Assembly: GCA_000004985.1 (NCBI GenBank)
Contig: GG738875.1
DNA: 64,000 nt
Direction: 5' to 3' (one strand)
Origin: Naegleria gruberi
Lineage: Eukaryota
This document shows positions 4,704-35,223 of this stretch, in pieces. The position numbers and the translations under genes are program-made. How positions within the stretch are numbered: the stretch's first letter is position 1; each line of letters opens with the position of its first letter. The notes below the pieces were generated by a model. That model was not told where the DNA came from. It searched no databases and saw only the letters and a program-made list of their open reading frames with translations.

Positions 4704-4893
4704 ATGGTGTTTTTTTTTGTTGTTAGAAAGGTGAAAGTGGGTGAAAGTACCGTATTTCTAAAATTGTGTAGTGGATTCCCTTTTGGGTGCCATTTTCATT
4801 GTGTTCGTGATATAGAACCAACACGAAATATGAAACGACGATTTTATTTTGTGGACTAGCATAATAATCTATCATAAAGTGCTAATAACCTAA

Positions 4894-6519: not shown

Positions 6520-6581
6520 TTTTTAATACAATAAATCTTTGCATGACGGGCCTTGACATGTTGATGGCATCATTTAAATTA

Positions 6582-7751: not shown

Positions 7752-7760
7752 GAAACGAAG

Positions 7761-8702
7761 TTAATGGTTGACTGGGGTAACCTTAAGAAGTTTCTTCAAA
7801 TCTTGGTTTTCAGTGTTGACTAAATTTACAGCCCTGAATCCATTGAGAGTTAATTTGTGTTTGTCAGCTCCATGATCAAGTAAATATTTACAAAGAGAAT
7901 AGTTTTGTTTGCAGGCAGCCAAATGTAGACATGTGTATCCATCAAAATCTGTAGCATTGAGATCCATACCTCTCTTTTCAATGAGATATTCCACAATTTG
8001 TGTGCTACCTCTTGCACAGGCAATGTGAAGGCAATTTTGTCCATAGGTTCTATTTCCAATCATAAAGTGATCATTGTTACACATTGGTGGAAGTAGATTT
8101 TCACACATCCAAATAAATTTTGAATAAGCATTGGAATAGGCAAAGTTCATAAGAAGGGTAGAACGATTGTAATCTTTCACATTGAAAATATTCAGAATGT
8201 CCATCGTTTCACGGTTACGATACAACATTTCATAAAGCTTACACAATTCACAGAACAGAGCTGTGCATTCCTGTTCTGGATCAAAAATTGCTTGTAACAC
8301 AACAGATTTTTCTATATAATGTTTCAAATTATAAACTCGAATCAAAACAAGTGGTCTTTCCAATTCGTATGAAATTATATTCTTCCAAGCAAACGGATTC
8401 TTTATCGTTTTCAATTCTTTCATGATGAAAATATCCACAAATTTCTCTTTAGGATCCAACAATTCTACTCTCATCACACAACTGTTACTTTTTTCATCGA
8501 AAAAACAAGATTCTACTCTTTGGAAATTACGAGAGAAATTATTTAAATACAATAATAGTTGAAAGGAAGGATCTTGATGAATAATTTGATAAAATTCGTG
8601 GCAAACTAAATTAGCAGATCGGAAGAGATTTTCCAGAGGTAAATACTCGAGAATGGAGTGATAAATTTCCCTTGGTAGTAATTGATTTTCTAATGATATC
8701 AT
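7761..8702 (-). CDS. F-box / ankyrin-repeat protein.
   Basis: N-terminal F-box-like LPREIYHSILEYLPLENLFRSANLVCHEFYQI. C-terminal ankyrin-type repeats (NCLHIACARGSTQIVEYLIEKRGMDLNATDFDGYTCLHLAACKQNYSLCKYLLDHGAD). Confidence 0.6.
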   Translation of the reverse strand: MISLENQLLPREIYHSILEYLPLENLFRSANLVCHEFYQIIHQDPSFQLLLYLNNFSRNFQRVESCFFDEKSNSCVMRVELLDPKEKFVDIFIMKELKTIKNPFAWKNIISYELERPLVLIRVYNLKHYIEKSVVLQAIFDPEQECTALFCELCKLYEMLYRNRETMDILNIFNVKDYNRSTLLMNFAYSNAYSKFIWMCENLLPPMCNNDHFMIGNRTYGQNCLHIACARGSTQIVEYLIEKRGMDLNATDFDGYTCLHLAACKQNYSLCKYLLDHGADKHKLTLNGFRAVNLVNTENQDLKKLLKVTPVNH

Positions 8703-11900: not shown

Positions 11901-13865
11901 AAATGTATTTCCAGTAATACATGCAAGTGTGAAAGTGGATGGAATGGAAATAACCAATGTGGAGCTTTTTCATGTGACATTCCTTCTCAACATGGAATTT
12001 GTATTGGTCCAAACACTTTCAAATGTCAAGATGGATGGACAGGACTCGAATGTGAAATTCCAATTTGTTTTGGAAAATTAGGAAATGATCCTAGAGTGTG
12101 TAACTCACAGGGAAGATGTATTTCTAATAATACATGTCAATGCAATAGTGGATGGAAAGGAAATTCTGAATGTTCTCAATTCTCATGTGATGGAATGGCT
12201 GAATGTTCTCAAAATGGTAAATGTATTTCTAATAATACATGCCAATGCAGATCAGGATGGTCTGGACCAAAATGTGATATTGTTGCATGTGATGGAGTTC
12301 AAAACTGTCATGCTAATGGTTTGTGTATTTCAAACAATACTTGCAAATGTAATAGTGGATGGGAAGGTCAATCATGTTTGGAGTATAATTGCAATGGTAC
12401 CAACAATTGTCAACCGAACGGTCTATGCATTTCGAATAATACTTGTAAATGTAATGATGAATTTGGTGGAAATGATTGTTCAATACCTTACTGTTTTGGA
12501 AAATTGGGTAATAGTGGATGTGAAGATAATGGAATTTGCTCATTTTTCAACAAGTGCTCATGTTTTCCTCTTTACTTTGGAGATCAATGTTCATGGTTAG
12601 ATTGTGATCCAACTTCAAAAGATACATCCCAAAATTCAACTAAAAGATGCTCCTCAAATGGTTATTGTGTTATGACCAGAAATAATTTGAATCAAAATTC
12701 TACCATTTGTGAATGTAATAAGGGATATAATGGTCAATTTTGCCAAAATAGTGATTCTACGAATGGATCGGGAACAATAGCTGCTATAGTTGTTACAATA
12801 CTTGTTATAATTTTGGTATTTATATTAATGATAAGTGTTGGTACTTTTATCTATGTTAAAAAGTTCAGAAACAAATATCAAGATCCAGAGAAAATGAAAA
12901 TGTTAAACAATACTACACCATCAACTTATTCAGAATCAAGTTGGTCAAATTCTCTCTCCATTCAGAATGACACTAGTTTAATAAGTAATACTCACAGTAG
13001 TATTTCATCAAAGACACATTTCAAAATTAGGGATAAAGAATACATAATGGAAAGAAAATTAGGAAGTGGTGCTAATGGTTCTGTATTTGTATTTAAGGAA
13101 ATTAATACCAATCAGCATTTTGCCGTAAAGCAAATAGAAGTAACAAATCCATTTGGTACGGAATTTAAAGAAGTCGTGAATATGTTTGAATTGACTGAGG
13201 ATTCTAATGCTCATATTGTACCAATTATTGGCTGTACAATGGTCGAGAATGGAGGATTCATTTGTATTCTCATGCCACTCTACAAGTGTGATTTGAGAGA
13301 TTGGATATATACAAATCAAAAATCAATCACAATTGATCTAATTATTGAAATTGTAAAACAAATTGCTTTAGGATTACAATATCTCCATTCCAAGAATATG
13401 ATACACAGAGATTTGAAACAAACAAACATATTCATTGCCAAAGCCAATGAAAAAGATGTATCAAAATGTGATGACTTTTTATTGTGCATTGGAGATTGGG
13501 GATCTTCCAGATCTAATTCACGATCTGGTCTGACTGTCTATGAAGGAACAATTCAATTCAGTTCTCCAGAAGCAATCATTAAGGGAGAAGTTGAACAAGC
13601 AAGTGATATTTGGAGTTTGGGATGTGTTTTCTATCAATTATTATCTGGAGATTATGAATCAATTTTGTTTAGGATTAAACAAGGCAATGATCTGGCAGAT
13701 AATGAAGTACTCTTACCAAAAATTCTTAATTTTGGTAAAAAGATGAATTACAGAGATGGAAAGGTTCAATTTTGTTTTGAATTATTGTGTGAAATGATTA
13801 GATATGATGCCAAGATGAGATTAACTGCCCATCAAATTTTAGCCAAGATTGAAAACTTTAAATAA
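8994..13865 (+). CDS. Receptor-like transmembrane kinase: signal peptide, NHL-type beta-propeller repeats, tandem tenascin-type EGF repeats, TM helix, cytoplasmic protein kinase domain.
   Basis: Hydrophobic N-terminus. Repeated YIADTGNNVIR/YIADTGNNAIRKI/YFANTGTSQIMKL NHL-like motifs. About 5 units of ~73 aa with the CxCxxGWxGxxC EGF pattern. TM stretch IAAIVVTILVIILVFILMISVGTFIYV. Kinase motifs GSGANGSV, AVKQ, HRDLKQTN, DWG (variant DFG), SSPE (variant APE). Confidence 0.7.
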   Translation: MPPLLSFHSSSIIIILILFINSIFFIHSSLASSKTTIIKTTANNYNIKIVAGSYGNTIDSYHFPIISESPIYVQSSSSSSSVVVMEKEEDDGDEIIYLSDTQFCVVRKIQKSLSVVVAGNGICAVPGETSGLAVEFSLTSPGGVYLDESTNILYILDNGLSNSGGFVRTVDMSSGMLNTLQLTYEPAVLMLKSPTMITKNGGIFYIADTGNNVIRSLTFTGQNTAHCKVIIGAVNPDVSMSCVNVDPLSCQLSSPTSITFSSDGMIITDQQNSRFLALQNGIVYPYSLVIPTPLQIMSLGNAEYIVSNGEILYSLTQTTKNGADSTILLKDKSWPIGYFGIDSAQTNLYFMSQLPNLAVSQIVKFNIQSLGQPTVIGGAYPYTLSPNVPASSYYFNGLTQLEYVSDSEIYFASYNTDIIKFDMTAGLATRIAGNMNQPSALSKISKGLLVADTVNRLIKLIDGGGSVSTVAGTNSNGIGCPEGVQATSCELNLPSGVVGTPSILSNQYMFVIADSNANTLRMVANDFTVTTLANSVSNVRYPTGLYYTANGDLYFANTGTSQIMKLAHDNTIAVIAGTGEKGNKGDGGLAVNAALNYPTQVTVTSNGILYIADTGNNAIRKIDSNGIISTVTHNAIQGINGVATTSEGELLYADSYTVRMIQSVACINPQGQVCSNHGKCVDGQCLCESGWRGDSVCGTFSCDIPKPPNAHNCIGPNQYSCMNGWFGDLCNLPICFGIQYNNSAVCSSHGKCVSNNTCNCESGWNGNTKCGTFSCDIPKPPNAFECIGPNQYSCMTGWFGNSCELPICFGIQFNNSAVCSSHGQCVSNNTCICESGWRGDSVCGTFSCDIPKPPNGQQCIGPNQYSCMNGWFGDLCNLPMCFGIQYNSSSVCSSHGKCISNNTCNCESGWNGNKQCGAFSCDIPKPPNAFECIGPNQYSCMDGWFGDLCTFPICFGIQFNNSAVCSSHGKCISSNTCKCESGWNGNNQCGAFSCDIPSQHGICIGPNTFKCQDGWTGLECEIPICFGKLGNDPRVCNSQGRCISNNTCQCNSGWKGNSECSQFSCDGMAECSQNGKCISNNTCQCRSGWSGPKCDIVACDGVQNCHANGLCISNNTCKCNSGWEGQSCLEYNCNGTNNCQPNGLCISNNTCKCNDEFGGNDCSIPYCFGKLGNSGCEDNGICSFFNKCSCFPLYFGDQCSWLDCDPTSKDTSQNSTKRCSSNGYCVMTRNNLNQNSTICECNKGYNGQFCQNSDSTNGSGTIAAIVVTILVIILVFILMISVGTFIYVKKFRNKYQDPEKMKMLNNTTPSTYSESSWSNSLSIQNDTSLISNTHSSISSKTHFKIRDKEYIMERKLGSGANGSVFVFKEINTNQHFAVKQIEVTNPFGTEFKEVVNMFELTEDSNAHIVPIIGCTMVENGGFICILMPLYKCDLRDWIYTNQKSITIDLIIEIVKQIALGLQYLHSKNMIHRDLKQTNIFIAKANEKDVSKCDDFLLCIGDWGSSRSNSRSGLTVYEGTIQFSSPEAIIKGEVEQASDIWSLGCVFYQLLSGDYESILFRIKQGNDLADNEVLLPKILNFGKKMNYRDGKVQFCFELLCEMIRYDAKMRLTAHQILAKIENFK
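10990..12060 (+). repeat. Tandem 219-bp coding repeats (EGF-like units) with a two-unit, ~438-bp higher-order periodicity.
   Basis: ccaatttgttttggaattcaat... recurs at about 11191, 11409, 11629, 11847 and 12059. Alternate units share GWRGDSVCGTFSC versus GWNGN.QCG.FSC variants. Confidence 0.8.
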
Positions 13866-14090: not shown

Positions 14091-15170
14091 TTAATATTGT
14101 TTCTGGAGTCCATATTTGAAATCTTTAGTCTCAGTGGTGGTTCGGTATCGAATAATCATTTCAACGAGTAGTTCAGCAATACCCACACCATCCCTTGCAC
14201 TAGTGTGTACAATTGAGCAATTTAGGATCATGTTCTTTCTGAGAACTCGTTTCACATATAATTCCCTAGTTTTTTCATCGTGTTCTCCATATGTAATATC
14301 ACACTTTGTGAAAACAATGATTATTGGACTATTATTGACCTCTCTAATACGAACAATTCTCTGTAGCAATTTATCCAAAAAATTGTAACTGTGCTCTATT
14401 GATTTTTGATTATCCTTCGAATAATTACTCCAATAAGGTTGTGGTGGTATTGTTAGTAAAATTATATCACTAATCTGTATCATCCGATCCTGTAAGGACA
14501 CATACTCATCCATTGCATATGTATCCACAATTTCCAATTGATATTTAGCATCCGAATATCGAAACTCTTTCAAATAAGTATCCTCAATTTGCATCTCATA
14601 TGGAGAATTGAAAAATTCACCAGACAGTACTCGACATAGACTTGATTTTCCAGAACCATACTCTCCAATACAAAATATCTTACATTTCAAATCCTCAACA
14701 TTCATTTGAGAATTTTGATTAATATTACCAACACTATTCGATTCATTTTTCTTCATTATTGGAATCAATTGTTCCTCATACTGAATCTGCAACATTCTCA
14801 CTAACATGCAATAGTATCGTTTGGCTTTTTTCTTGATTTTTTCTCTAAGTTTCTTCTCTTCCTGCAGTAGAGAATGGCCAAGAAATTCCCTCTCCATCAA
14901 ACTCAACCAAAATTCATTGAAATAATTAGAAATTTCCAAAGATTCGGATAAAAAGAAGGAACAAGTGGATTGGAGTGAAAGGATGCTCTTTTTTACTTCA
15001 TCAATTTGTAGATTAATGAAATTATTTGATGAAGTGTTGGCAGTTTGATGATGAACAGGTAACAGAAAGGAAAATATTTCACGGAAAATGTCATGTGGTA
15101 AAGATAATAGTGTGAATTTTGACATTTTTTTTAAGTTGTTAATTACAAGTTGGAACTTGGTTTGGAACAA
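14091..15170 (-). CDS. F-box protein with a C-terminal Ras-superfamily small GTPase domain.
   Basis: N-terminal F-box-like FTLLSLPHDIFREIFSFLLP. GTPase motifs G1 GEYGSGKSS, G3 DTYAMDE (no catalytic Gln), G4 TKCD, G5 TSAR. Confidence 0.55.
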   Translation of the reverse strand: MFQTKFQLVINNLKKMSKFTLLSLPHDIFREIFSFLLPVHHQTANTSSNNFINLQIDEVKKSILSLQSTCSFFLSESLEISNYFNEFWLSLMEREFLGHSLLQEEKKLREKIKKKAKRYYCMLVRMLQIQYEEQLIPIMKKNESNSVGNINQNSQMNVEDLKCKIFCIGEYGSGKSSLCRVLSGEFFNSPYEMQIEDTYLKEFRYSDAKYQLEIVDTYAMDEYVSLQDRMIQISDIILLTIPPQPYWSNYSKDNQKSIEHSYNFLDKLLQRIVRIREVNNSPIIIVFTKCDITYGEHDEKTRELYVKRVLRKNMILNCSIVHTSARDGVGIAELLVEMIIRYRTTTETKDFKYGLQKQY

Positions 15171-16228: not shown

Positions 16229-17797
16229 ATGTCAAGCAGCAGACCAACAAGAGAAAGAAGATTACCGATTCATTTGGAAGATTATATCGTTGGTGAATTA
16301 GATTTACGAAAGAATTATGAAAAGGAAGAAAAGAAGAAACAAAAATTATTATTAAAGAAGAAGGCTGAAATTTCAAAGAAGGAACAAGCTGAAAAGAGAA
16401 AGAAAGAAGCAATGGAAGCAACAAAGAAAAAGAAGGAAGCTGTTAAAAAATCTATTAGAAAAAAGCCTACTTCATCATATTATACTTCATCTTCAACAAC
16501 AATTTCTAAAAGATCTTCATCTGCAATTACACCATATACAGATTATACTAATCCAAAATTTAAAGTTTTTACATCAACATCTGAAGCAAGAAACAAATTA
16601 ATTGAAAAAACACCTGGTAATAAGATTTTAAAAGGGTCAGATGATGCTTCTAAATGGTCAATGTCAAAATTAGATACATCAATTAGATACAAATCACTTA
16701 ATATTTCAGATATTTTAAGTGGATGTTATTATGTACCAGGTAATAATCACAAATTAGATACAACTGGTAGTGATAGAGTACCTGCAGTTCAAATTTGTTT
16801 TTCATTTGATACAACTGGTTCAATGTCTTCATATTTAAATAATTTGAAATTTAAATTACAAACTATTTGTCAACAATTAATGAATGATGTTAGAGGTTTA
16901 GAAATTGCAATTATTGCACATGGTGATTATGAAGATTCTAAAGATACTGGATCATATTGCTTATACAAATTAGATTTTACAACAGATATCGAACAAATTA
17001 TTTCATTTGTTCAATCAATTAATTCAACAAGTGGTTATGATGGTGATGAATGTTATGAAGCTGTTTTATTAGAAGCTCAATCTTTATCTTGGGTTAATGT
17101 TGAAAATACATTTACAAATAGATCACTTGTTGTAATTGGTGATGCTGATCCTCACAAATCAACTGAATGGTTTAATATTGATTGGAAACAAGAAACAAGT
17201 AATTTATTTGATAATCATCATGTTAAAATTCATAGTGTTAGATGCGGTTCATCTTCATGGTCAACAAAAGATTTTTACAAAACAATTTCAGAAGAAACAG
17301 GTGGATCTGAATATTTATTAGATACATTTGAAAAAACAATTGAAATGTTTTGTGGATTAATTTATAGAGAAGCTGCTGATAATATTATGATGAATGATAC
17401 AACAATGCAAGCACATATTGATGGTGCAGTTTCAGGTGAAGTTACAATTGTTAAACCAACAATGTCTTCAAGTGATAAGATGATTGATGATGGTGAAAAG
17501 AGTGATGATATTACATCATTAGGTTCATATATTGTTACAGATGATGATATTTTAAAGATTCACACTGCAATTCATAGTACTTGTACAGAAGTTAAAATTA
17601 ATGGTATTGAATTTGCAATTCAAATGAATGAAAGTTCATGTAGATTTGTAAGAGTTGATGGAGTTGTCTATATTGAACAAAATAAGGAAAAGAAGACTAA
17701 GTATGCCAAGATGGCTCTCGAAGGAAAGAAATTAACTTGGATTTGTCATGCTGGTAATTGGGGTCTTATCATTGATGATAAAATTGAAAAGAGATAG
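16229..17797 (+). CDS. Protein with N-terminal K/E-rich coiled-coil-like region and a von Willebrand factor A-like (vWA) domain.
   Basis: KKEEKKKQKLLLKKKAEISKKEQAEKRKKE low-complexity region. vWA/MIDAS-like core VQICFSFDTTGSMSSYL...IAIIAHGDYED...VVIGDADPH. Confidence 0.45.
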   Translation: MSSSRPTRERRLPIHLEDYIVGELDLRKNYEKEEKKKQKLLLKKKAEISKKEQAEKRKKEAMEATKKKKEAVKKSIRKKPTSSYYTSSSTTISKRSSSAITPYTDYTNPKFKVFTSTSEARNKLIEKTPGNKILKGSDDASKWSMSKLDTSIRYKSLNISDILSGCYYVPGNNHKLDTTGSDRVPAVQICFSFDTTGSMSSYLNNLKFKLQTICQQLMNDVRGLEIAIIAHGDYEDSKDTGSYCLYKLDFTTDIEQIISFVQSINSTSGYDGDECYEAVLLEAQSLSWVNVENTFTNRSLVVIGDADPHKSTEWFNIDWKQETSNLFDNHHVKIHSVRCGSSSWSTKDFYKTISEETGGSEYLLDTFEKTIEMFCGLIYREAADNIMMNDTTMQAHIDGAVSGEVTIVKPTMSSSDKMIDDGEKSDDITSLGSYIVTDDDILKIHTAIHSTCTEVKINGIEFAIQMNESSCRFVRVDGVVYIEQNKEKKTKYAKMALEGKKLTWICHAGNWGLIIDDKIEKR

Positions 17798-18010: not shown

Positions 18011-21000
18011 TTATTGGGCTTTTCTTGGTTCAATAACGAGAGACTTCTTGTGAAGTTCATCATCATTGGTGATAATTCCTTCAAAGATTTGTTCTTTAAG
18101 AACATATTGAAGGTAAGGAATAGGTTCTAAACGATACAAGTTGGAACAACTTTGTAAATCCTTTACAGTTTGAATAGTATTATAGTAAATTCTTCTCTTT
18201 TGATAATTAATGAGTTTCTTGTTTGGATTCTTAGGGTGATTAAATTCATCAGGATTACCATCAGAAGTGAAGGTCAAATCAGTTTGGAAGATACCAATAA
18301 ATGGAACGATTGGAGTATTATTGTTAACAATGGTATTCTTCAAATTTTCTCTCAATTTGATACGATTGTTAGCATGTAAGTCATCAAAGATCTTAAAGAT
18401 GTTGGCATCGTCTTGTGAGAGAACTTTTCTTGTTTCTTTCAATCTATAAACAGGAACAGATTGCAAACCTGAAATAATGGCAAAGAAGGCACTATAGTTA
18501 TTCAATTCATAAGTTTCCTTAGCAATTTCAACAAACTTCTTAAACAATGCCTTTCTAATTTCGGTATTTGACTCTGTCAAGATTGTAGTTTGAACCCAGT
18601 AACTGATATTGTTTACACGGTCAGTCAATGAAGAAATGTGAGGAGCCAATTCATACTTGTACTTGATATCACTCCATGCAGAGTTATAGAATTCGTTTGC
18701 TTCAATCTTCTTAAAGATCTTCAAATCAATAATAGTTTCTTGTCTAGCAATTTCAGTAGCTGGCCAACTCAACAAGTTGAATTGAATATTGTAAGGATTA
18801 GGCATGCCTTCATTAATGTATTTGGACTTTTGAATCTTCCATTGGTTAAGAGAGATTTCTGGTTCTTTCAACTTTTCAATTGGAACACCTTTAGGAATCA
18901 TGACAGTGTTAGATTGGCCATGATGACTGGTTGAACCGGATTCATCCTTCTTGAAACTAAGCAAGTTTTGAACAAGAGTCTTTCTAATCTTCTTCAAAGT
19001 TGGGTGAACCCTCTTTGCACCATCCTCTTGTTGTTTCTTTCTGATTGGTTGGGCAATTTCTTCAAAATAGTGCGCATAAAGAGCAACAGCTTCATTGTCA
19101 AGAGCATGGAAAGCTTCCTTGAGGAGTTCATTCATTGCTTGTTCAATGTAGAGACGAACAGTGTTATTCTTGATAACAGATCTGTAGACTCCCATAAGAC
19201 GATTCATCAGAGAACGTGCTGTGGTGAATGATGAGAAGGTATTGAGGAAGGTAGAATGGAAAACACCTCTCAATTCAGTTTCACCTTCCAATGTTAGCAT
19301 TCCTACGAATTTTTCCACCAACTTCTTCAATGTACCAGATGAAATTGTACTACGCTTAATATCAACATTGACATCTTCTGGTTCATCTTCCAAATCAACT
19401 TCACTCTCAAAGTTAAGAACATAAGAAAATGGTTCCAAGAGCAAAGCCATACATTCCTTTGAGATTTGAATAGACTCACCAATAGCCTTATCACCCATCA
19501 GTTCTTCAGTGTACAAACTACAAGCTCCCAAAAGCCATCTCCACTTTTGTTCAACCTTACGTTTTTGGGCGTAAGGAACTCTGTCCTTCTTTGGAATTGT
19601 TAGGTCATATAAATCTGGACAGACAAGACTGTGGTTAAAGCTAGTAAGGAATGGATGCAAACAATCTTGGAATATGAGAGACACAACCTTGAATTCATCC
19701 TTCATAGTCAATTGGAAAATCATGTTAAATATCAATCTTGAAATTGAACGCAAAAGCAAGGATTTGACTGGAGTCATTGTCTTGGTATTTCTGGTGATTT
19801 CTAGTTTTGAAATGACTTGGACATATTCTTCCTTGTTAGCCAAGAGCTTATCTATTGGATATTTAACATTGATATTTTCAAAGATTTGATTGAGAACATT
19901 CTTCTCAGTGATCTTGCTGAGGATATAATTAACAGACAAAACTGTTTCGATACGAATATTTCTTTGTCCTCCCTTCTTCCTTTCTTTTGGAATGGATGAA
20001 GAATAATCGAGGTGATGTACAGACATGACTACATAGTCTAAGAATGAAATACAATTGATCATCACGTGTAGAGGAGCTTGAGTCCACCATTGGATGAGTC
20101 TTTGTTCTGAGAGGTTTCTCAAAACCCAAAGAAGACAGAAAGAGGTCAAGATGTAAAGTTCATCATTGTGGAACATTGTAAGGTATTCTTCCTTATCCAT
20201 ATATCTGTCAACAAAATACAAGAAAATTTCTGCAATAGCGGCTCTCTTGGATGTATCTTGATATCTTGAATCAAAGTCAATCTTGCAGAATAAATCTAAC
20301 AAGTATTTGCCAACTTTGAGCATGAGCTTTTCATTATTAGTTTCAATGGTGGCAAAGAAAACATCAAATAAGTGTCTAACCATAAAGTTTCCTTCTTGCA
20401 ATTGCAAACTGTTGAGTGGAATGAAATAGTCATAGTCGCACAAAATGGCAACAAACTCTGACTTTAATCTCAAAAGTGCTTCAGTACTAGCATCTCCTGA
20501 AAGACAATCCATATAGTGCTTGACAATATCAATATAGTATTCTCTATCAATGAATGGAATTAAATCTCTAATAAACAATGCCAAGTTTCTGTTACTATTC
20601 AAACCAATATTTTGTCTACCTGAACCACTAGAAGACAATAATTTCTTTGTACGAGAACAGAAGTGATGCATTAATTGTTTGACCTTTCTCACAAAGTATT
20701 CTTGAGAAAGTGGATGTTCATCATTCCACCCATATCCATCGTTAGACTTATTCAAATACCAACTGTCCTTGATGGTGAGACAATCCAAAGAATCAGTCTT
20801 GATACACAATGTCAAACTCTTAATAATAACATCAAAGATAAACCAAGAGAAACGGAACGGATCGTGTTCAGTCAAATTGTTAGTAACAAAGTAGTGTTTG
20901 GTTGGTTCTTGCAAAATCTTTGTCAATTCTTCCAAATAGTCAGTAAAGACACGAGTTAAAACTGAATAAATTGGATAACCTCTATTCATTTCGTCAAAGA

Positions 21001-24000
21001 TATACTTGGTATATGAAGCCATAAACTTGTTACCTCTGGTATGATTCTTAGTAAGATGGTAAACACCTCTCAAACAGACCAATACTTGTTCGAAGATTAA
21101 TCTTTCAGCACCCTTTCTCAAATCAGTAGAGTGAATAGATAAATCAGAAATGTTACTCATGAGTTCAAACAAAATATTCATAACAATTGGTAAGTGAGGC
21201 ATAAATAAGGAAAAGTCAATATCACAGAACTTCATCAAAATGGATCTGCAAATGTATTCCAAAATCTTTTCCTTATTCTCAGTCTCAGGGCTATACAAAT
21301 CGTGAATACTGGCAAAGAAGAGTTTCAAAATATCATCACGTGGATTGATTGTTGAAACAAGTTGTGCCATAAGCTTGAATCTGGCATCACTTATTTTTTC
21401 AAGAGTGCCCTTAGTTTGACTCTTAGTAAGGTAATCTGGTTGGAGTTCCTTGTATACTCTGAGTTCTCCAGTAAAGAATTGCTTTTGGAAATCAGTATGT
21501 TTGAGTTGATAGATTGCTTGTGCCTTGTCAGCTTCATAAATCTTGTTCTTTTCAGTCAAATCCAAGAATGAATAACCTAGGATTGCTCTATCACTGTTAC
21601 CAAAATCATCCTTTCTATCCAAGAATTCATACTTTAGCTTATTAGACTTTTTATCAATATCAATATGATAGAAAGTGAAAAGCAAGTGATTACCCTTGTT
21701 TGAAACAGCTGGAATATCAAGCTTAATTTCATCAAGGAATTGTGGAGTCTTATTATCATACTCAAGAGCAGAGAATTCACTATGCTTCTTTTCAGAAGTA
21801 AATCTGTTAATAATGACTGGATTAGATTTTTGAAGCTCTTCCAATGTTGGAATAGTGCTATCTGATTCTCTGAAAATTACCTCAATGAGAATGTTCTTAC
21901 CATTAGCCTTTTCCAATTTGACACCTTGTGGATAGACATACAAAGTATTTTGTAAGTTCATGTATGGATATCTGATTTTGTACCATGGAATTTCATTAAC
22001 TGAAATAGACTCTAAAATCTTCATTTGCTCTTCAAAGAGGGCTTTTCCGAAATCACCAGAATTTAGGATGACTGAATTACGACGTTCGGCCTCACTTTCT
22101 TCATCTTCTTCTTCCATAACATTGGCAACATCAGTACTATCATCTCCCAAATAATTGTTTGGTGTTTGGTAAGATGAGTGGTCTTCATTGATACTTCCAC
22201 TGTCTTCAGAATCTTGCTTGTATATGAGTTGACTATCACCAATACCAGCTCCAGTATCTTCTGATGGTTTTGATAACTTGTACTTTTGAAGATCACTGAT
22301 CAACTCAACGTAAACCTTCATTGTAGCGTTAACAGAATGGTGTTTAGTCTTTTGCTTAAGTGCAGAGTAAACATTGAGTGGATTTTTGTAATCACCTTCA
22401 ACAAAGAACATTTGTTCAAAGTTCAAAATACTAGATGTCAACTCTATCTTCTTCTCATTGATTTTAAATAAAGGTACAAATCCAAAGAATGCTGGATACC
22501 TAAAGAAAGCCAACTTGTCCTTCTTTTCTAAAAATTCGGAACTAAATTCCTTCTTCTTGTGTGCCTTGATTGTATCCTTGGTTGGGCCATTGGATACACG
22601 GTTAACAAACAATACCAAAAACATTTCTTCATTTGGTGAAGAAACTGAGAATAATCTCTTCTCAGTTCTAGCAACACCTCTCTTTTGAAGAGAATTATGG
22701 AGGGATTCTGGAAGTTTCATCAATTGTTCATCAGTGAACATGTGGAAGTGATAATCTTCGCTGACCTTCTTTAAATATTTGGCATCATAGATGGCAACAG
22801 AGAATGTGAATAGATCATTTTGGAGTTCAGTACTATCCATAAAAATAAAATCGCTGCATGATAATTGGAATCTGAACTTTTTCTTGACAGGATATTCAAT
22901 TTCAGGGAATCTTTGACACATAGTAGTATGGAGTGGTTTGTATTCATATCTTGGTTGTAAAACTCCCATCAATCTCTTAGTATCCTTTTGAACATTTTTA
23001 CGATTCAATTCGGCAATATCGTTCAATTTCTTTTGAGGATCAACACTCAAACTGTCAGTCTTTTGCAGTTCTGCAGTGAGTTCATTCAAAAGTTCAAGAG
23101 GACGCTTAGCACACAATTCCTTAGCCTTTTCAACCAAACTCTTTTTCAAAGATTTGGAAATATCGATTTCATCAAAAGCATCAACAGCCTTCTTTTCACC
23201 AGTCTTCTTTTGAAGATTGGCAATTTCCTTCTCTGAAAGGTTTTGTTGATTAGTTACAAGAGAGGTGAAGCTCATTTGTCTTGGGAAGTTTGGATCGTTT
23301 GGATCGATGGTTGGAACCTCCTTCTTAGTTTCAGATCCTTCCTTTCCTTCCTTATCGTCCTTCTTAGTACTAGATTCGGTATTTTGTGCAGTAGTCTTGA
23401 AGATATTATTCCAAATTGATTTTCTCTTGTCTCTGTTTGTTGCTGCAGGGGAACCGGCTGAACTTGATTTACCACTACCAGAAGCAGCAATAGAATCACG
23501 ATTACTACTTCTAGACAAGGCATTCTTTAACTTTTTGGACAAGCCACTTTCTGTAAAGTCACCCATTTGTTCAGTAGCACGGAAAAGCTCCTCTGGATCT
23601 TTAGAAGTTTGTACTTCAGTAGCCTTTTCAGCTTGGGCTTTTTCAATGTCTAAAATCTTGGACATGGAAGGTAAGATATCGTCATCATTTGTATCTTGAT
23701 TCTCCTCTTCCTCTGATTTCTTTTGTTCCTTCTTATTCTTCTTAGCTGATTTATCCTCATGTTCAGTTGATTGTGTTGCTGTTGTTACCGTAGTACTGTT
23801 AGTAGGAGCCTCAGAATTAAGAATTGCATATTGTGGTTTGAAAGGAGACATTCTGTATGGATTTGCTTCATAATGCAAAATCTTGAATGGTTTATAGAAA
23901 ACTTGCAAACAGTGTCTCACATGAGGGAATTTGAAATAAACAACTTCCTCCAAATTAGTATCTGCATCACTTGATTTCTTTGTAACTTTTTGTAAATATC

Positions 24001-25522
24001 CACCTCCGTAAGAAAGGAATCTGAAAAAGTTTTTAACAAGTAATCCCTTATGTTCTGAATTTTCTTTGCTTGGTGATGTTTTTGTACCATTACTACTGGA
24101 TTCATTGGTGGAATTGCCTGTAGCAGGAGAGAGTGCATTTTGTTCAGAAGGTGATCCAAGAGTATTCAATGATGTATTAACACTACCACCTCCGCTACTA
24201 ATGAGCATACTATTAGAATGTTGTTGAATTCTCATACTTGATGATCTCATCAAAATTCTTCTAGATGTCTGATTACGAAGAGATCCAGTATTGAACAATA
24301 CCATCCACTGTGTTTGATCAATTTCCTCAATTGAAAATGGATCCATAGCTTGCATATTCACTGGTAAAGGTGATTTTTGCTCGCTGCTCTTTCCATTAGT
24401 GTCATCAGAGAGAGTTGAAGCAATCATTTTCATTAGCTTTTGTTGACGTCTCTTTTCCTCTTCTGTCATTGGTGGAGGAGGAGTGGCAGGTGGAGGAGGA
24501 AGAGGTCCATTATATGAAGTAATAGTGAGTTTTCCACTTGTAGTTGTAGTAACAGTGTTATTATTATTGGTGGAAGATGTAGAACTGCTAGCAGAACTGG
24601 TAGTGTCATGCTCAACACTTGTTTGACTAGTTGATGATGATGTCACTTCAGTGTGTTGTTGTACAGGTTCTTCTTCTTCGTTTAGACGTGGAGTTGGTTG
24701 TTCAACACTGATGGCAACATCAGCAACAAATGAAGTTGAATTACTGGTAGTAGTATTATCATTAGTGATACTAACAGCTACCTCTTGTTGTTCAATTACA
24801 ACAGCATCACTGTTGGAGTCTGCCCTAGAAACCAATGTTTCTTCTTGTGTAATATTAGTGGAAACTGGTTCATCAAGTACTACTTCTTGTTGGACAACAT
24901 CAGTGGACGATGTTTGTGATGAGTCAATAATGACCTGGCCAACAGGTGTTTCTTCTACAATAATTGTATTCTGTTCTTCGACAATAGTCTCGCTTTGTAC
25001 CTTTGATACTTCTTGTTGTTGATGATCATCGTGGTCAACATTCGTTATTTCTGCTGTACTTGTAGTTGAAGAATTCAAATTGTTGGAAACTGGTTCATCA
25101 TAATGATGATTTACTTCTTCTATTGTTGTTGTAATTGCTTCTTGTGGTTGTTCTACAGAATTGTTGCTGCTGTCATCACTTGCCTCCTTATGATGAGTAG
25201 AAGAAGATTTAGAAGGACTACCTTCAACTTTTGTATCCACAATAGTAGCAGTAGAATTATTATTATCATTGGAATTGTTGGTAGTAGTGGTACTATCATC
25301 ATGACTAGTTGGAGGTGTTATTGTTTGTGGTTGTGATGTATTATCTAGTTGTTTTTCTTCATCATCAGAAAGACTACTTCTTCTTGATGAATTAGTTGAA
25401 GAGGAAGAAGATGAAGTGGATCCTTCTTGATGTTCATCTTCTTGATTGCTGACAGCAGGTTGATGATGGGTTATTGATGAGTGATTTACTTCATCAACAT
25501 TAGATGATTCATGATGGTCCAT
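18011..25522 (-). CDS. Giant (2503-aa) Ras guanine-nucleotide exchange factor: low-complexity S/T/N-rich N-terminus, DOCK DHR-1-like segment, long helical/ARM-like middle, C-terminal CDC25-homology RasGEF domain.
   Basis: The C-terminus has CDC25 signature blocks NYSAFFAIISGLQSVPVYRL and VPFIGIFQTDLTFTSDGNPDEF. The middle segment NTLYVYPQGVKLEKANGKNILIEVIFRESD resembles the DOCK DHR-1 core (..DLYLTLERGEF.KG.K...NVEV..). Confidence 0.7.
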   Translation of the reverse strand: MDHHESSNVDEVNHSSITHHQPAVSNQEDEHQEGSTSSSSSSTNSSRRSSLSDDEEKQLDNTSQPQTITPPTSHDDSTTTTNNSNDNNNSTATIVDTKVEGSPSKSSSTHHKEASDDSSNNSVEQPQEAITTTIEEVNHHYDEPVSNNLNSSTTSTAEITNVDHDDHQQQEVSKVQSETIVEEQNTIIVEETPVGQVIIDSSQTSSTDVVQQEVVLDEPVSTNITQEETLVSRADSNSDAVVIEQQEVAVSITNDNTTTSNSTSFVADVAISVEQPTPRLNEEEEPVQQHTEVTSSSTSQTSVEHDTTSSASSSTSSTNNNNTVTTTTSGKLTITSYNGPLPPPPATPPPPMTEEEKRRQQKLMKMIASTLSDDTNGKSSEQKSPLPVNMQAMDPFSIEEIDQTQWMVLFNTGSLRNQTSRRILMRSSSMRIQQHSNSMLISSGGGSVNTSLNTLGSPSEQNALSPATGNSTNESSSNGTKTSPSKENSEHKGLLVKNFFRFLSYGGGYLQKVTKKSSDADTNLEEVVYFKFPHVRHCLQVFYKPFKILHYEANPYRMSPFKPQYAILNSEAPTNSTTVTTATQSTEHEDKSAKKNKKEQKKSEEEENQDTNDDDILPSMSKILDIEKAQAEKATEVQTSKDPEELFRATEQMGDFTESGLSKKLKNALSRSSNRDSIAASGSGKSSSAGSPAATNRDKRKSIWNNIFKTTAQNTESSTKKDDKEGKEGSETKKEVPTIDPNDPNFPRQMSFTSLVTNQQNLSEKEIANLQKKTGEKKAVDAFDEIDISKSLKKSLVEKAKELCAKRPLELLNELTAELQKTDSLSVDPQKKLNDIAELNRKNVQKDTKRLMGVLQPRYEYKPLHTTMCQRFPEIEYPVKKKFRFQLSCSDFIFMDSTELQNDLFTFSVAIYDAKYLKKVSEDYHFHMFTDEQLMKLPESLHNSLQKRGVARTEKRLFSVSSPNEEMFLVLFVNRVSNGPTKDTIKAHKKKEFSSEFLEKKDKLAFFRYPAFFGFVPLFKINEKKIELTSSILNFEQMFFVEGDYKNPLNVYSALKQKTKHHSVNATMKVYVELISDLQKYKLSKPSEDTGAGIGDSQLIYKQDSEDSGSINEDHSSYQTPNNYLGDDSTDVANVMEEEDEESEAERRNSVILNSGDFGKALFEEQMKILESISVNEIPWYKIRYPYMNLQNTLYVYPQGVKLEKANGKNILIEVIFRESDSTIPTLEELQKSNPVIINRFTSEKKHSEFSALEYDNKTPQFLDEIKLDIPAVSNKGNHLLFTFYHIDIDKKSNKLKYEFLDRKDDFGNSDRAILGYSFLDLTEKNKIYEADKAQAIYQLKHTDFQKQFFTGELRVYKELQPDYLTKSQTKGTLEKISDARFKLMAQLVSTINPRDDILKLFFASIHDLYSPETENKEKILEYICRSILMKFCDIDFSLFMPHLPIVMNILFELMSNISDLSIHSTDLRKGAERLIFEQVLVCLRGVYHLTKNHTRGNKFMASYTKYIFDEMNRGYPIYSVLTRVFTDYLEELTKILQEPTKHYFVTNNLTEHDPFRFSWFIFDVIIKSLTLCIKTDSLDCLTIKDSWYLNKSNDGYGWNDEHPLSQEYFVRKVKQLMHHFCSRTKKLLSSSGSGRQNIGLNSNRNLALFIRDLIPFIDREYYIDIVKHYMDCLSGDASTEALLRLKSEFVAILCDYDYFIPLNSLQLQEGNFMVRHLFDVFFATIETNNEKLMLKVGKYLLDLFCKIDFDSRYQDTSKRAAIAEIFLYFVDRYMDKEEYLTMFHNDELYILTSFCLLWVLRNLSEQRLIQWWTQAPLHVMINCISFLDYVVMSVHHLDYSSSIPKERKKGGQRNIRIETVLSVNYILSKITEKNVLNQIFENINVKYPIDKLLANKEEYVQVISKLEITRNTKTMTPVKSLLLRSISRLIFNMIFQLTMKDEFKVVSLIFQDCLHPFLTSFNHSLVCPDLYDLTIPKKDRVPYAQKRKVEQKWRWLLGACSLYTEELMGDKAIGESIQISKECMALLLEPFSYVLNFESEVDLEDEPEDVNVDIKRSTISSGTLKKLVEKFVGMLTLEGETELRGVFHSTFLNTFSSFTTARSLMNRLMGVYRSVIKNNTVRLYIEQAMNELLKEAFHALDNEAVALYAHYFEEIAQPIRKKQQEDGAKRVHPTLKKIRKTLVQNLLSFKKDESGSTSHHGQSNTVMIPKGVPIEKLKEPEISLNQWKIQKSKYINEGMPNPYNIQFNLLSWPATEIARQETIIDLKIFKKIEANEFYNSAWSDIKYKYELAPHISSLTDRVNNISYWVQTTILTESNTEIRKALFKKFVEIAKETYELNNYSAFFAIISGLQSVPVYRLKETRKVLSQDDANIFKIFDDLHANNRIKLRENLKNTIVNNNTPIVPFIGIFQTDLTFTSDGNPDEFNHPKNPNKKLINYQKRRIYYNTIQTVKDLQSCSNLYRLEPIPYLQYVLKEQIFEGIITNDDELHKKSLVIEPRKAQ

Positions 25523-27341: not shown

Positions 27342-28457
27342 ATGAAGCGTCTATTTCCATCGACACAGGAAAGAGTTCGTGGTGTTCTCTTTGGGCTAGT
27401 GGCTGGTGATAAGAATCATGGACCTCAAGCGATGGGCATAATGGTTGGCAAGGCTTTGATTGATAATAAGAAGAACAGTTCAACTTTGGAGATGAAAGTG
27501 CCATCCTCCGAACGTTATTCATTGGAATTTAATCAATTATTGACTAATATATTGAAAAATTATTTGCATTGGTATCATTCCAAGTCGAAGGGATGGTATG
27601 ATACTGGTAAGTAGTAGTAAAATTGAGAAATTGTTTGGAATGATCAATTATCATCATCATCATTAATAGGACAAATTGGAAAGGAAATATTTGACAAGTT
27701 TAAATCAGGAGATTTTAATGGAGAATCAAATGATGTGAAGGAATTGGAAACGCAATTATATGAAGTGGCAATTGTAGTGAGACAATTGGATAATCAATTG
27801 AATGGACAAACTGGTGGAATTAATCCAGCTCATAGAAATGTAGTATTGAGCATGTACAATAGAATTAGTGATGATGATTTGTTAAAGATGGCAAAGGAAG
27901 AGACCAGATTGACTCATTATTCAGTATTTGCTTGTGAAGCAGCACAAATGCAGAATTATATTTGTAGAAGATATATCAAAATGAATATTTCTGAAAATGA
28001 GCCAAGATTATCAATTCTTGCAGTTTGTAAAGAGTTTGTGGAAAACAATCAATTGTCAAAGGAATTTAAAAATTCATTGAATCAAGTTTTGGAAAATAAG
28101 GAATTTCTGAGTGGAGATTCGAATGCAATTGCTTTACTGAGAAAGTCCATTTCAAGAGGAGGTTTTTCACCACAAACTTTGGCCTCTGCACTGTATTTTA
28201 TCATTCTTCATACAATGCTCATGGAAAATGAGTACACATCTGAGAGAGAAATGGCTGTGTCATGCCTTCTCGATTCGTTCCAATTTGCTGGCAGTGCTAA
28301 TTATTGTCCAGTATTGGTTGGTCCAATTCTTGGCTCAATGTTTGGAGATTCAGTTTTCTTTAACAACTCTGAGAGTGAAGATGATTTGCTCTCTCATTCT
28401 AAACGAATGGAGGAAGCCCTTGAAGTTTGTACTGAGCTTGCAGATATGTGGAATTAA
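27342..28457 (+). CDS. Putative ADP-ribosylglycohydrolase-like protein, two exons: join(27342..27606, 27670..28457).
   Basis: GTAAGT donor at 27607 and acceptor AG at 27668-27669 join ORFs 27342-27614 and 27735-28457 in frame. GLVAGDKNHGPQAMG and CPVLVGPILGSMFGD weakly resemble the ARH-family N- and C-terminal motifs. Confidence 0.4.
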
Positions 28458-30372: not shown

Positions 30373-30442
30373 AAAATCATTTGCATTAGCCGGGAGTCGA
30401 ACCCGGGTCACCAGCTTGGAAGGCTGGTATGATACCGTTACA
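30373..30442 (-). tRNA. tRNA-Gly (anticodon UCC).
   Basis: Reverse complement GCATTAGTAGTGTAACGGTATCATACCAGCCTTCCAAGCTGGTGACCCGGGTTCGACTCCCGGCTAATGC folds as a cloverleaf: 7-bp acceptor stem, anticodon loop CTTCCAA, T-arm GGGTTCGACTCCC. Confidence 0.8.
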
Positions 30443-30489
30443 CTACTAATGCTCTTGAAATATTTTTTAAATTAAGGAAATTCAGGAAT

Positions 30490-35149: not shown

Positions 35150-35223
35150 TACGCCGTAAGGGAGTCGAACCCTTGACCTTCAGCGTGTAAAGCTGACGAT
35201 CTAACCAACTGATCTAACGGCGC
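35150..35223 (-). tRNA. tRNA-Val (anticodon UAC).
   Basis: Reverse complement GCGCCGTTAGATCAGTTGGTTAGATCGTCAGCTTTACACGCTGAAGGTCAAGGGTTCGACTCCCTTACGGCGTA has a 7-bp acceptor stem (one G-U), D-arm GATC...GATC, anticodon loop TTTACAC, T-arm GGGTTCGACTCCC. Confidence 0.8.

What the first reader, a model, noticed from the sequence alone, without database searches (positions are those of the whole stretch)
18011..25522. 2503-aa protein with a DOCK DHR-1-like segment upstream of a CDC25 RasGEF domain
The C-terminal ~300 aa are an unambiguous CDC25-homology domain (NYSAFFAIISGLQ; VPFIGIFQTDLTFTSDGNPDEF). In the middle of the protein, NTLYVYPQGVKLEKANGKNILIEVIFRESDSTIP closely mimics the core strand pair of the DOCK-family DHR-1 (C2-like) domain. 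A long helical-repeat stretch follows, as in DOCK proteins. DOCK proteins are Rho-family GEFs that act through DHR-2. A protein combining DOCK-like membrane-targeting architecture with a Ras-family CDC25 GEF would be an unusual hybrid. The N-terminal ~500 aa are extreme low-complexity (S/T/N/Q), which is common in amoebozoan and heterolobosean proteins.
Basis: partly seen in the sequence, partly recalled or inferred. Interest (0 to 1): 0.6.

Follow-up and report, generated by a model that had tools for sequence, protein, structure and literature searches.

The report
DOCK scaffold carrying a Ras exchange factor
This Naegleria gruberi gene encodes a protein built like a DOCK-family Rho activator, with two lipid-binding C2-type domains and the long helical scaffold, but its Rho-activating catalytic domain is replaced by a Ras-activating REM-CDC25 module; this old, multi-copy design in Discoba protists appears undescribed in the literature I could search.

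The parts
18011..25522 (-). Complete single-exon ORF of 2503 aa plus stop codon: the DOCK-scaffold RasGEF of Naegleria gruberi
   Evidence: It is 100% identical to the annotated N. gruberi protein P0001.
24398..25522 (-). aa 1-375: S/T/N/E-rich low-complexity N-terminus, not conserved
   Evidence: Identity to orthologs is 1-23%. Composition is given.
22883..24385 (-). aa 380-880: family-conserved N-terminal blocks (for example AMDPFSIEEIDQTQW at aa 392-406). aa 532-553 may be a remnant of the DOCK-C/D N-terminal domain.
   Evidence: Conserved blocks are seen. The hhalign match of aa 532-553 to DOCK7 109-130 has only Prob 12.5% and E=0.0023, so it is inconclusive.
22301..22879 (-). aa 882-1074: first beta-sandwich, homologous to the C2 ('DHR-3') domain that precedes DHR-1 in DOCK-C proteins
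   Evidence: The profile block matches DOCK6 chain residues 266-380, which are native residues 260-374. BLASTP to a DOCK7-like protein aligns from aa 908. hhalign column confidence is 6-8. The model shows strands at model residues 3-195. DOCK6 domain names come from PMC13503879.
22013..22300 (-). aa 1075-1170: acidic, S/E/D-rich, poorly conserved insert between the two beta-sandwiches, predicted disordered
   Evidence: pLDDT is 22-30. Identity to orthologs is 5-33%.
21332..21961 (-). aa 1188-1397: DHR-1 (DOCK-C2) domain. Its L1 loop holds K1202, K1205 and the K1209-N1210 pair, which is invariant in the seven-member alignment.
19973..21331 (-). aa 1398-1850: ARM/TPR alpha-solenoid homologous to the DOCK-C/D scaffold (TPR_DOCK9)
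   Evidence: Precomputed PF28208 TPR_DOCK9. Collinear blocks to DOCK6 up to chain residue 1308. hhalign confident to about aa 1850, matching DOCK7 up to about 1325. Model pLDDT is 70-90. It is 83% identical to N. lovaniensis and 69% to Willaertia.
19376..19972 (-). aa 1851-2049: family-specific helical linker at the position where DOCKs continue into the ARM-DHR-2 hinge and lobe A. No detectable DOCK homology.
   Evidence: hhalign column confidence is about 0-1.4. The local LINK HMM is recognisable only in the closer family members. The region is helical in both models.
19043..19375 (-). aa 2050-2160: REM (RasGEF_N) domain
   Evidence: Pfam PF00618 at aa 2060-2126 scores 28.6 bits against a 28.3 cut-off. 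It scores 30.6-39.2 bits in three homologs (P0002, P0005, P0006) and below the cut-off in P0004 and P0007. Model B superposes on the SOS1 and yeast Cdc25 REM+CDC25 modules over 450-500 columns.
18014..18796 (-). aa 2243-2503: CDC25-homology catalytic domain with an intact helical hairpin (aa 2406-2424)
   Evidence: Pfam PF00617 E=4e-49. PDB sequence matches: RalGPS1 4.6e-30, RasGRF1 1.6e-27, SOS1 6.6e-23. Hairpin residues are mapped.

Best explanation
The gene encodes a member of an old clade of DOCK-C/D-type proteins found in Discoba. In this clade the Rho-directed catalytic DHR-2 domain has been replaced by a Ras-directed REM + CDC25 module. The membrane-facing part of the DOCK architecture is kept: the upstream C2/'DHR-3' domain, DHR-1 and the ARM/TPR scaffold.

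Shown by the analyses: the domain order; homology of aa ~880-1850 to DOCK-C/D; absence of DHR-2; an intact-looking CDC25 catalytic hairpin; strong conservation of both halves; and recurrence of the same architecture in many paralogs and species.

Inferred: the tandem C2 and DHR-1 domains bring the protein to anionic phosphoinositide-containing membrane (PI(4,5)P2 or PIP3, as shown for DOCK8 and DOCK1 DHR-1). The ARM scaffold positions, and possibly auto-inhibits, the C-terminal module. The CDC25 domain then catalyses GDP release from a membrane-anchored Ras/Rap/Ral-type GTPase. The protein would therefore convert a lipid signal that normally drives Rac/Cdc42 activation into Ras-family activation. 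The exact GTPase and lipid are unknown.
For: Architecture:
- Pfam finds DOCK-C2, RasGEF_N and RasGEF in this protein and in six homologs, with no DHR-2 lobes.
- The precomputed TPR_DOCK9 family is assigned to it.
- BLASTP to a nematode DOCK7-like protein spans aa 908-1704, E=3e-28.
- The family profile matches DOCK6 in six collinear blocks, E=4e-30.
- hhalign of the family against DOCK-C/D gives Prob 100 and E=4e-66. Confident columns run from aa ~880 to ~1850 and collapse after that.

Structure:
- The C-terminal model matches the SOS1 and Cdc25 REM-CDC25 modules at E~5e-13, with no DHR-2 hit.

Functional constraint:
- Identity to the Willaertia ortholog is 69% for ARM, 60% for DHR-1 and 73% for CDC25, against 5% for the low-complexity region.
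- K1209-N1210 is invariant in the seven-member alignment and aligns with DOCK8 R581-N582. R581 is the residue most critical for PI(4,5)P2 binding, and it corresponds to DOCK6 R568.
- The CDC25 hairpin keeps the equivalents of SOS1 F929, T935 and N944, and an acidic residue at E942 (D or E in all seven members).

Family:
- About 25 further 50%-identity clusters have the scaffold plus REM-CDC25, and none has both CDC25 and DHR-2.
- Named members come from Naegleria (three species), Willaertia, Acrasis, Percolomonas and Andalucia.
- The fusion proteins form one bipartition in NJ trees under two independent alignment guides, with bootstrap 14/100 and 58/100.
Against: - No biochemical or genetic data exist for any member.
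- Lipid binding by DHR-1 is inferred from one invariant basic residue and a generally basic L1 loop. The second DOCK8/DOCK6 basic position (K576/R563) falls at a one-residue loop deletion next to K1205 and is not positionally conserved.
- The L1 loop and parts of DHR-1 are modelled at low confidence (pLDDT 30-65).
- The SOS1 L938 position is Thr here, and F929 is Ala or Val in two family members, so catalytic competence is likely but unproven.
- DHR-2 lobe A, the conserved DOCK dimer interface (PMC13503879), is missing. DOCK-style dimer and oligomer regulation therefore cannot simply be carried over.
- Support for a single origin is only moderate.
Confidence: 0.62

Rival explanations
1. The protein is an active RasGEF, but the DOCK-derived part no longer targets lipids. 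It would serve instead as a protein-interaction or auto-inhibitory platform, with the ARM solenoid and beta-sandwiches binding partners or the CDC25 domain. Membrane recruitment would happen by other means.
For: [quoted passage not shown] Only one of the two or three lipid-contacting basic positions is strictly conserved. The ARM region is the most conserved non-catalytic part.
Against: K1209-N1210, invariant in the seven-member alignment, sits exactly at the most critical PI(4,5)P2-contacting position of DOCK8. Two tandem C2-type domains are retained across the deeply diverged family members examined. Lipid targeting and auto-inhibition are not mutually exclusive.
Confidence: 0.22
2. The CDC25 domain is a catalytically dead pseudo-GEF, and the protein acts only as a scaffold or GTPase-binding adaptor.
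For: The SOS1 L938 equivalent is Thr. F929 is Ala or Val in P0005 and P0006. Substrate specificity cannot be assigned.
Against: CDC25 is the most conserved domain: 88% identity to N. lovaniensis, 73% to Willaertia, and 49-50% to the relatives P0005 and P0006. The hairpin keeps T935, the acidic residue at 942 and N944. Active GEFs such as RasGRF1 and RalGPS1 also differ from SOS1 at positions 938 and 939 (alignments). A REM domain is retained alongside it.
Confidence: 0.08
3. The architecture is an artefact: two adjacent genes (a DOCK and a RasGEF) were merged by assembly or gene prediction, or the DHR-1 resemblance is chance and this is an ordinary large RasGEF.
For: None was found.
Against: The raw DNA holds one uninterrupted 7.5-kb ORF. 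The same domain order is found in independent assemblies of N. fowleri, N. lovaniensis, Willaertia, Acrasis and Andalucia, in transcriptomes (Percolomonas) and in metagenome contigs. The DOCK-C2 E-value is 3.8e-28 and hhalign gives E=4e-66. No DHR-2 exists in the protein to mark a former gene end.
Confidence: 0.01

Closest known systems
DOCK-C / zizimin-related proteins (human DOCK6, DOCK7, DOCK8)
   Same: The order of N-terminal modules is shared: C2 ('DHR-3') then DHR-1 then the ARM/TPR solenoid. These align collinearly with DOCK6 native residues ~260-1300 and DOCK7 263-1325. The DHR-1 L1-loop basic residue equivalent to DOCK8 R581 / DOCK6 R568 is kept. As in DOCK-C, there is no PH domain.
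   Different: DHR-2 (lobes A, B and C) is entirely missing, and with it the Rac/Cdc42 catalytic site and the lobe-A dimer interface. REM + CDC25 sits in its place. The N-terminal DOCK_C-D_N domain is at best vestigial. The protein also has a long low-complexity N-terminus and an acidic insert between the two beta-sandwiches.
DOCK-D / zizimins (DOCK9, DOCK10, DOCK11; dictyostelid and other amoebozoan zizimin-class DOCKs)
   Same: The TPR_DOCK9 family is assigned to the scaffold. A profile built from fusion proteins hits DOCK11 and dictyostelid DOCK-family proteins at about 1e-90. The closest DHR-2-bearing representatives are zizimin-class proteins of Amoebozoa and Holozoa.
   Different: There is no PH domain and no DHR-2, so the predicted substrate is a Ras-family GTPase rather than Cdc42.
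SOS1, RasGRF1, RalGPS1 and yeast Cdc25 (CDC25-family RasGEFs)
   Same: The CDC25 domain has PDB sequence E-values of 4.6e-30 to 6.6e-23 to RalGPS1, RasGRF1 and SOS1 (1.3e-18 to yeast Cdc25), and the REM+CDC25 fold superposes on SOS1 and yeast Cdc25. The hairpin motif VPFxGxxxTDLxFxxDGNP is conserved. SOS and RasGRF likewise combine a Ras GEF with parts of a Rho GEF (DH-PH).
   Different: Membrane targeting and regulation would come from a DOCK-type C2/DHR-1/ARM scaffold, not from histone-fold/DH-PH (SOS), PH/IQ/DH-PH (RasGRF) or PH (RalGPS). Unlike SOS and RasGRF, no Rho-GEF catalytic domain is retained.
Plant SPIKE1 (DOCK-C-like, with DHR-3)
   Same: It has an upstream lipid-binding C2/'DHR-3' domain followed by DHR-1 and a long helical scaffold (as cited in PMC13503879).
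   Different: SPIKE1 keeps DHR-2 and activates ROP GTPases. I did not compare it directly here.

Membership tests
DOCK family (CZH proteins) | DHR-1 (DOCK-type C2) domain | tested here: met
DOCK family (CZH proteins) | DHR-2 catalytic domain (lobes A, B, C) | tested here: not met
   No Pfam DHR-2 lobe hit at E<=10 in this protein, and none at E<=0.1 in six homologs. A local DHR-2 HMM finds nothing in any CDC25-bearing member, while every positive-control DOCK scores 800-1000 bits. hhalign column confidence is about 0-1 beyond aa 1850. The C-terminal model gives no DHR-2 fold hit.
DOCK-C/D subfamilies | Upstream C2 ('DHR-3') domain and ARM/TPR scaffold collinear with DHR-1 | tested here: met
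   PF28208 TPR_DOCK9 is assigned in the precomputed annotation. DOCK5 is the top structural match.
DOCK-C/D subfamilies | N-terminal DOCK_C-D_N domain (PF11878) | tested here: inconclusive
   There is no Pfam hit. hhalign gives a 22-column match of aa 532-553 to DOCK7 109-130 at Prob 12.5%, E=0.0023. It is collinear in the long alignment.
DOCK-D subfamily | PH domain upstream of DHR-1 | tested here: not met
   No PH domain hit in Pfam at E<=10.
DOCK family (CZH proteins) | GEF activity on Rac/Cdc42 and homodimerisation through lobe A | not testable with these tools
   These need biochemistry. Absence of DHR-2 makes both unlikely.
CDC25-family Ras GEFs | CDC25-homology (RasGEF) catalytic domain | tested here: met
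   Pfam PF00617 at 167 bits, E=4e-49, profile positions 1-181 of 181. PDB sequence matches to RalGPS1, RasGRF1 and SOS1. Fold match.
CDC25-family Ras GEFs | REM (RasGEF_N) domain N-terminal to CDC25 | tested here: met
   28.6 bits against a 28.3-bit cut-off here. It scores 30.6-39.2 bits in P0002, P0005 and P0006, and below the cut-off in P0004 and P0007. The model superposes on the SOS1 and Cdc25 REM+CDC25 over 450-500 columns.
CDC25-family Ras GEFs | Helical-hairpin residues that open the nucleotide site (SOS1 F929, T935, L938, E942, N944) | tested here: inconclusive
   F2408, T2414, D2421 and N2423 are conserved equivalents. The acidic 942 position is D or E in all seven members. L938 is Thr here, and F929 is Ala or Val in two members. 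This is compatible with activity but is not proof.
CDC25-family Ras GEFs | Nucleotide exchange on a Ras/Rap/Ral GTPase | not testable with these tools
   Needs a biochemical assay.

The most novel reading that the evidence does not exclude
A whole clade of DOCK proteins, dating back at least to the common ancestor of Heterolobosea and jakobids, switched GTPase family by a single replacement of DHR-2 with REM-CDC25. These proteins would form a direct phosphoinositide-to-Ras link: the DHR-1/C2 domains read PI(4,5)P2 or PIP3, and CDC25 activates Ras or Rap. That is the kind of lipid-to-Ras positive-feedback connection long postulated in amoeboid chemotaxis models. It would have been expanded to five or more paralogs in Naegleria because it underlies the fast amoeboid motility of these cells.
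Probability: 0.3. Interest if true: 0.75.

Novelty: new variant of a known kind. Interest (0 to 1): 0.6.

Why it matters
DOCK proteins are defined by the DHR-1 + DHR-2 pair. Surveys describe them as having an invariant core with almost no domain shuffling, in contrast to Dbl GEFs (PMC5499878). This family breaks that rule. The membrane-reading scaffold of a Rho GEF has been re-used, apparently once and long ago, to drive a Ras-family GEF, and the result has been kept and multiplied in an entire eukaryotic supergroup lineage.

It matters in three ways:
- It is a clean natural case of catalytic-module swapping between GTPase families on a conserved regulatory chassis.
- It gives a concrete, testable candidate for coupling phosphoinositide signals to Ras activation in amoeboid cells. 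These include the pathogen Naegleria fowleri, which has orthologs.
- Counts of "DOCK" genes based on DHR-1 or C2 hits in protists may include proteins that are not Rho GEFs. Conversely, generic "RasGEF" annotations hide a DOCK ancestry.

Tried and rejected
- The search for homologous proteins with a full-length alignment of 14 diverse fusion members (A5) returned only 10 hits and missed known paralogs. The likely cause is that low-complexity words swamped the word pre-filter, so the result was uninformative.
- A second attempt with shorter members (A6) returned no newly named fusion members; its only new one was P0209, an unnamed JGI relative of P0070. It did confirm the DOCK-D/zizimin affinity. 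As a result, the taxonomic identity of several metagenomic members (P0048, P0050, P0051, P0053, P0058, P0070, P0097, P0099, P0101, P0112) remains unknown, and I cannot say whether the fusion exists outside Discoba.
- hhalign at -mact 0.1 over-extended the alignment through the CDC25/DHR-2 regions. I used per-column confidences and a -mact 0.5 rerun to define the true boundaries.
- The DOCK_C-D_N remnant hypothesis was tested directly and is only weakly supported.
- I tested for conserved synteny between the GEF and a neighbouring Ras-like GTPase as a hint to the substrate. GTPase genes lie within about 4 kb in N. gruberi, N. fowleri and Willaertia. However, they are at best very divergent from one another (30-32% identity, E=3e-5), they lie on different sides, and a neighbouring ADP-ribosylglycohydrolase gene changes sides. 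I rejected this as evidence.
- The first NJ tree used an alignment guided by a fusion-family HMM and gave only 14/100 bootstrap support for exact monophyly. I repeated it with a canonical-DOCK-guided alignment to remove that bias, which gave 58/100.
- Literature searches for any description of a DOCK + RasGEF architecture found nothing relevant.
Full report
**1. The observation.** Window 18011-25522 on the minus strand is one uninterrupted ORF of 2503 codons plus a stop codon. The translated protein is 100% identical to a GenBank/UniProt entry named only "rasGEF domain-containing protein [Naegleria gruberi]" on a 396-kb contig. The window is therefore Naegleria gruberi nuclear DNA, at 30-37% GC, and the gene is a single exon.

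**2. Domain content.**
- Pfam gives three hits:
  - DOCK-C2/DHR-1 at aa 1188-1397: 99.1 bits against a 33.6 cut-off, E=3.8e-28, profile positions 2-186 of 187.
  - RasGEF_N/REM at aa 2060-2126: 28.6 bits against a 28.3 cut-off.
  - RasGEF/CDC25 at aa 2257-2444: 167 bits, E=4e-49.
- No DHR-2 lobe, PH, DOCK_N or DOCK_C-D_N model hits, even at E<=10.
- Against PDB sequences, the CDC25 domain is closest to RalGPS1 (4.6e-30), RasGRF1 (1.6e-27) and SOS1 (6.6e-23). The middle of the protein matches DOCK6 and the DOCK8 DHR-1 domain.

**3. The DOCK similarity covers nearly 1000 residues.**
- BLASTP against a nematode DOCK7-like protein aligns aa 908-1704 in one HSP (E=3e-28) and has a further collinear block at aa 1796-1830.
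- A profile of seven family members (aa 880-2079) matches human DOCK6 (PDB 9vm2) at E=4e-30 in six collinear blocks spanning DOCK6 chain residues 266-1308.
- hhalign of an 11-member family alignment against 15 DOCK-C/D proteins gives Prob 100 and E=4e-66.
  - Per-column confidence is high from aa ~880 to ~1850, matching frog DOCK7 263-1325.
  - It falls to about 0-1.4 from aa 1850 to the C-terminus.
- The precomputed annotation also assigns PF28208 to this protein. The local Pfam copy lacks that family, but another tool names it TPR_DOCK9.
- The 2026 DOCK6 cryo-EM paper (PMC13503879) gives the DOCK6 domain order as NTD, C2 ("DHR-3"), DHR-1, ARM, DHR-2. On that map the conserved part here corresponds to C2/DHR-3 (aa 882-1074), DHR-1 (aa 1188-1397) and ARM (aa 1398-1850).
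- A possible remnant of the NTD/DOCK_C-D_N domain at aa 532-553 is only weakly supported (Prob 12.5%, E=0.0023).

**4. Structure predictions.**
- Scaffold model, aa 880-2079. The AlphaFold2 model from the 7-sequence alignment has mean pLDDT 61.5, with 70-90 across most of the solenoid.
  - It shows two beta-sandwiches separated by a disordered acidic insert, followed by a long alpha-solenoid.
  - Foldseek against the PDB ranks DOCK5 first (E=6e-9 and 1.6e-8 over about 1300 columns). Generic solenoids follow at E>=3e-4.
- C-terminal model, aa 1830-2503. It has pLDDT 73.5.
  - It continues the solenoid through the family-specific linker (aa 1851-2049).
  - It then forms a REM+CDC25 unit that superposes on SOS1 and yeast Cdc25 over 450-500 columns (E~5e-13). 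No DHR-2 appears among the matches.

**5. It is a family, not a one-off.**
- All six homologs from the first search have DOCK-C2 + RasGEF_N + RasGEF and no DHR-2. They are from N. lovaniensis (ortholog and a paralog), N. fowleri, Willaertia magna and two metagenome sequences.
- An exhaustive HMM search with the scaffold alone (aa 900-2050) against 1.84 billion cluster representatives found 824 hits.
- I classified the top 150 with local HMMs for CDC25, REM and DHR-2.
  - About 25 additional clusters carry the scaffold + REM + CDC25.
  - The other full-length hits carry DHR-2.
  - None carries both.
- Named fusion members include:
  - four N. gruberi paralogs: the window gene, XP_002675540, XP_002671916 and XP_002679050;
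  - further paralogs in N. lovaniensis, N. fowleri and Willaertia;
  - Acrasis kona and Percolomonas sp.;
  - the jakobid Andalucia godoyi.
- Clustering indicates at least five paralog lineages within Naegleria/Willaertia that are only about 25-35% identical across the scaffold.
- Several deep-branching members come from unnamed metagenome or Logan contigs, so distribution beyond Discoba is neither shown nor excluded.

**6. Single or multiple origin.**
- In neighbour-joining trees of the scaffold, the CDC25-bearing proteins form one exact bipartition with no DHR-2 protein inside.
- This holds when the alignment is guided by a fusion-family HMM: 28 fusion against 95 DHR-2 proteins, 586 columns, bootstrap 14/100 for exact monophyly, mean overlap 0.92.
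- It also holds when the alignment is guided by a canonical-DOCK HMM: 27 against 104 proteins, 742 columns, bootstrap 58/100, mean overlap 0.975. The main unstable member is P0112.
- Distances are near saturation, so this is moderate support for one ancient replacement of DHR-2 by REM-CDC25.
- The nearest DHR-2-bearing representatives are zizimin-class DOCKs of Amoebozoa and Holozoa. A profile made only of fusion proteins hits DOCK11 at about 1e-90.

**7. Signs of retained function.**
- Identity between N. gruberi and Willaertia by domain:
  - 73% for CDC25
  - 69% for ARM
  - 60% for DHR-1
  - 51% for the linker
  - 42% for C2/DHR-3
  - 41% for REM
  - 27% for the acidic insert
  - 5% for the low-complexity N-terminus
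- The DOCK-derived scaffold is therefore under constraint comparable to that on the catalytic domain.
- In DOCK8, R570, K576 and R581 (beta1 strand and L1 loop) bind PI(4,5)P2, and R581 is the most critical (PMC7893821). DOCK6 R563 and R568 are the equivalents (PMC13503879).
  - In this family, K1209-N1210, invariant across the seven aligned members, aligns with R581-N582 / R568.
  - The L1 loop holds further lysines at K1202 and K1205.
  - The position equivalent to K576/R563 lies at a one-residue loop deletion.
- In the CDC25 hairpin (numbering derived from the 1bkd alignment), the mapping is SOS1 F929=F2408, T935=T2414, L938=T2417, E942=D2421 and N944=N2423.
  - The acidic 942 position is D or E in all seven members.
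  - F929 is Ala or Val in two of them.

**8. Mechanism.**
- Shown: a DOCK-C/D chassis (C2, DHR-1, ARM) is fused in one polypeptide to REM-CDC25, there is no DHR-2, and both halves are conserved.
- Inferred from established knowledge of the parent families:
  - DHR-1, and probably the upstream C2, recruit the protein to phosphoinositide-rich membrane.
  - The CDC25 domain exchanges nucleotide on a prenylated Ras-family GTPase there.
  - The ARM scaffold and N-terminal region may auto-inhibit, as they do in DOCK6.
- Excavates possess a class I/II-type PI3K (PMC4617754), so either PI(4,5)P2 or 3-phosphoinositides are plausible ligands.
- Lobe A, the conserved DOCK dimer interface, is absent, so the oligomeric regulation seen in DOCK6 cannot be assumed.
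- The substrate GTPase is unknown. Sequence proximity to RalGPS1, RasGRF1 and SOS1 does not resolve it.

**9. Comparison with what is known, and novelty.**
- Membership in the DOCK family in the strict sense fails, because the defining DHR-2 domain was tested and is absent.
- Membership in the CDC25 RasGEF family is met.
- In ancestry and architecture it is a DOCK-C/D derivative. In catalytic terms it is a RasGEF.
- Databases already carry automatic labels ("RasGEF domain-containing", "C2 DOCK-type domain-containing").
- Full-text searches found no paper describing the combination.
  - Reviews and surveys state that DOCKs have an invariant DHR-1/DHR-2 core with only SH3 or PH additions (PMC5499878).
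  - They note only that Naegleria has both Dock and Zizimin genes (PMC3620097).
- I rate it a new variant of a known kind.

**10. Caveats.**
- Everything functional is inferred.
- Model confidence is moderate, and the alignments behind the models are shallow (7 sequences).
- The phylogeny is distance-based on saturated data.
- The literature library excludes most subscription-journal papers, including the original Naegleria genome paper as far as I could see, so a brief earlier mention cannot be excluded.

Noticed in passing
window 14091-15170 (-): A 359-aa ORF about 2.8 kb downstream of the GEF gene on the same strand. It has an F-box-like N-terminal motif (LPHDIFREIFSFL) and a divergent C-terminal Ras/Rap-subfamily GTPase domain (Pfam Ras E=7e-14; best PDB matches Ras 1.8e-11 and Rap1b ~1e-10). 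Its G3 region reads DTYAMDEY and lacks the usual catalytic Gln. Small-GTPase genes also lie within about 4 kb of the orthologous GEF in N. fowleri and Willaertia, but they are not clearly orthologous to this one.
   Followed up: partly
window 8994-13865 (+): A 1623-aa receptor-like protein with NHL repeats, many teneurin-type EGF repeats and a C-terminal protein kinase domain (Pkinase E=4e-42). This is a metazoan-looking ectodomain design in a heterolobosean.
   Followed up: no
window 24305-24349 (-), aa 392-406 of the GEF: A short motif, AMDPFSIEEIDQTQW, embedded in otherwise low-complexity sequence and conserved across most of the seven aligned family members. No Pfam family matches it. It may be a linear docking motif.
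   Followed up: no
window 22013-22300 (-), aa 1075-1170 of the GEF: An acidic S/E/D-rich, poorly conserved insert that is predicted disordered (pLDDT 22-30). It sits between the C2/DHR-3 and DHR-1 beta-sandwiches. The two domains lie directly in tandem in DOCK6.
   Followed up: partly
window 27735-28457 (+); L003 8509-9667; L004 20546-21343: An ADP-ribosylglycohydrolase gene, or an exon of one, lies next to the GEF in N. gruberi, Willaertia and N. fowleri. It is on the opposite side of the GEF in N. fowleri, which indicates a local rearrangement.
   Followed up: partly
window 30382-30452 (-) and 35150-35223 (-): tRNA-Gly (TCC) and tRNA-Val (TAC) genes lie between protein-coding genes.
   Followed up: no
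window 7761-8702 (-), 16229-17797 (+), 32231-35077 (-): Other neighbouring ORFs: an F-box + ankyrin-repeat protein, a 522-aa protein with a sub-threshold VWA_4 match, and a 948-aa GT4 glycosyltransferase-domain protein.
   Followed up: no
L002 (JGI metagenome 3300037860, 284-kb contig), gene at 3001-7884: A compact, intron-poor eukaryotic contig of unknown organism encodes a short (1627-aa) DOCK-scaffold RasGEF (P0070). It sits beside genes for peptidase M32, Tim10, actin and a TFIIB-like protein. Identifying this organism would show whether the fusion exists outside the named Discoba.
   Followed up: partly
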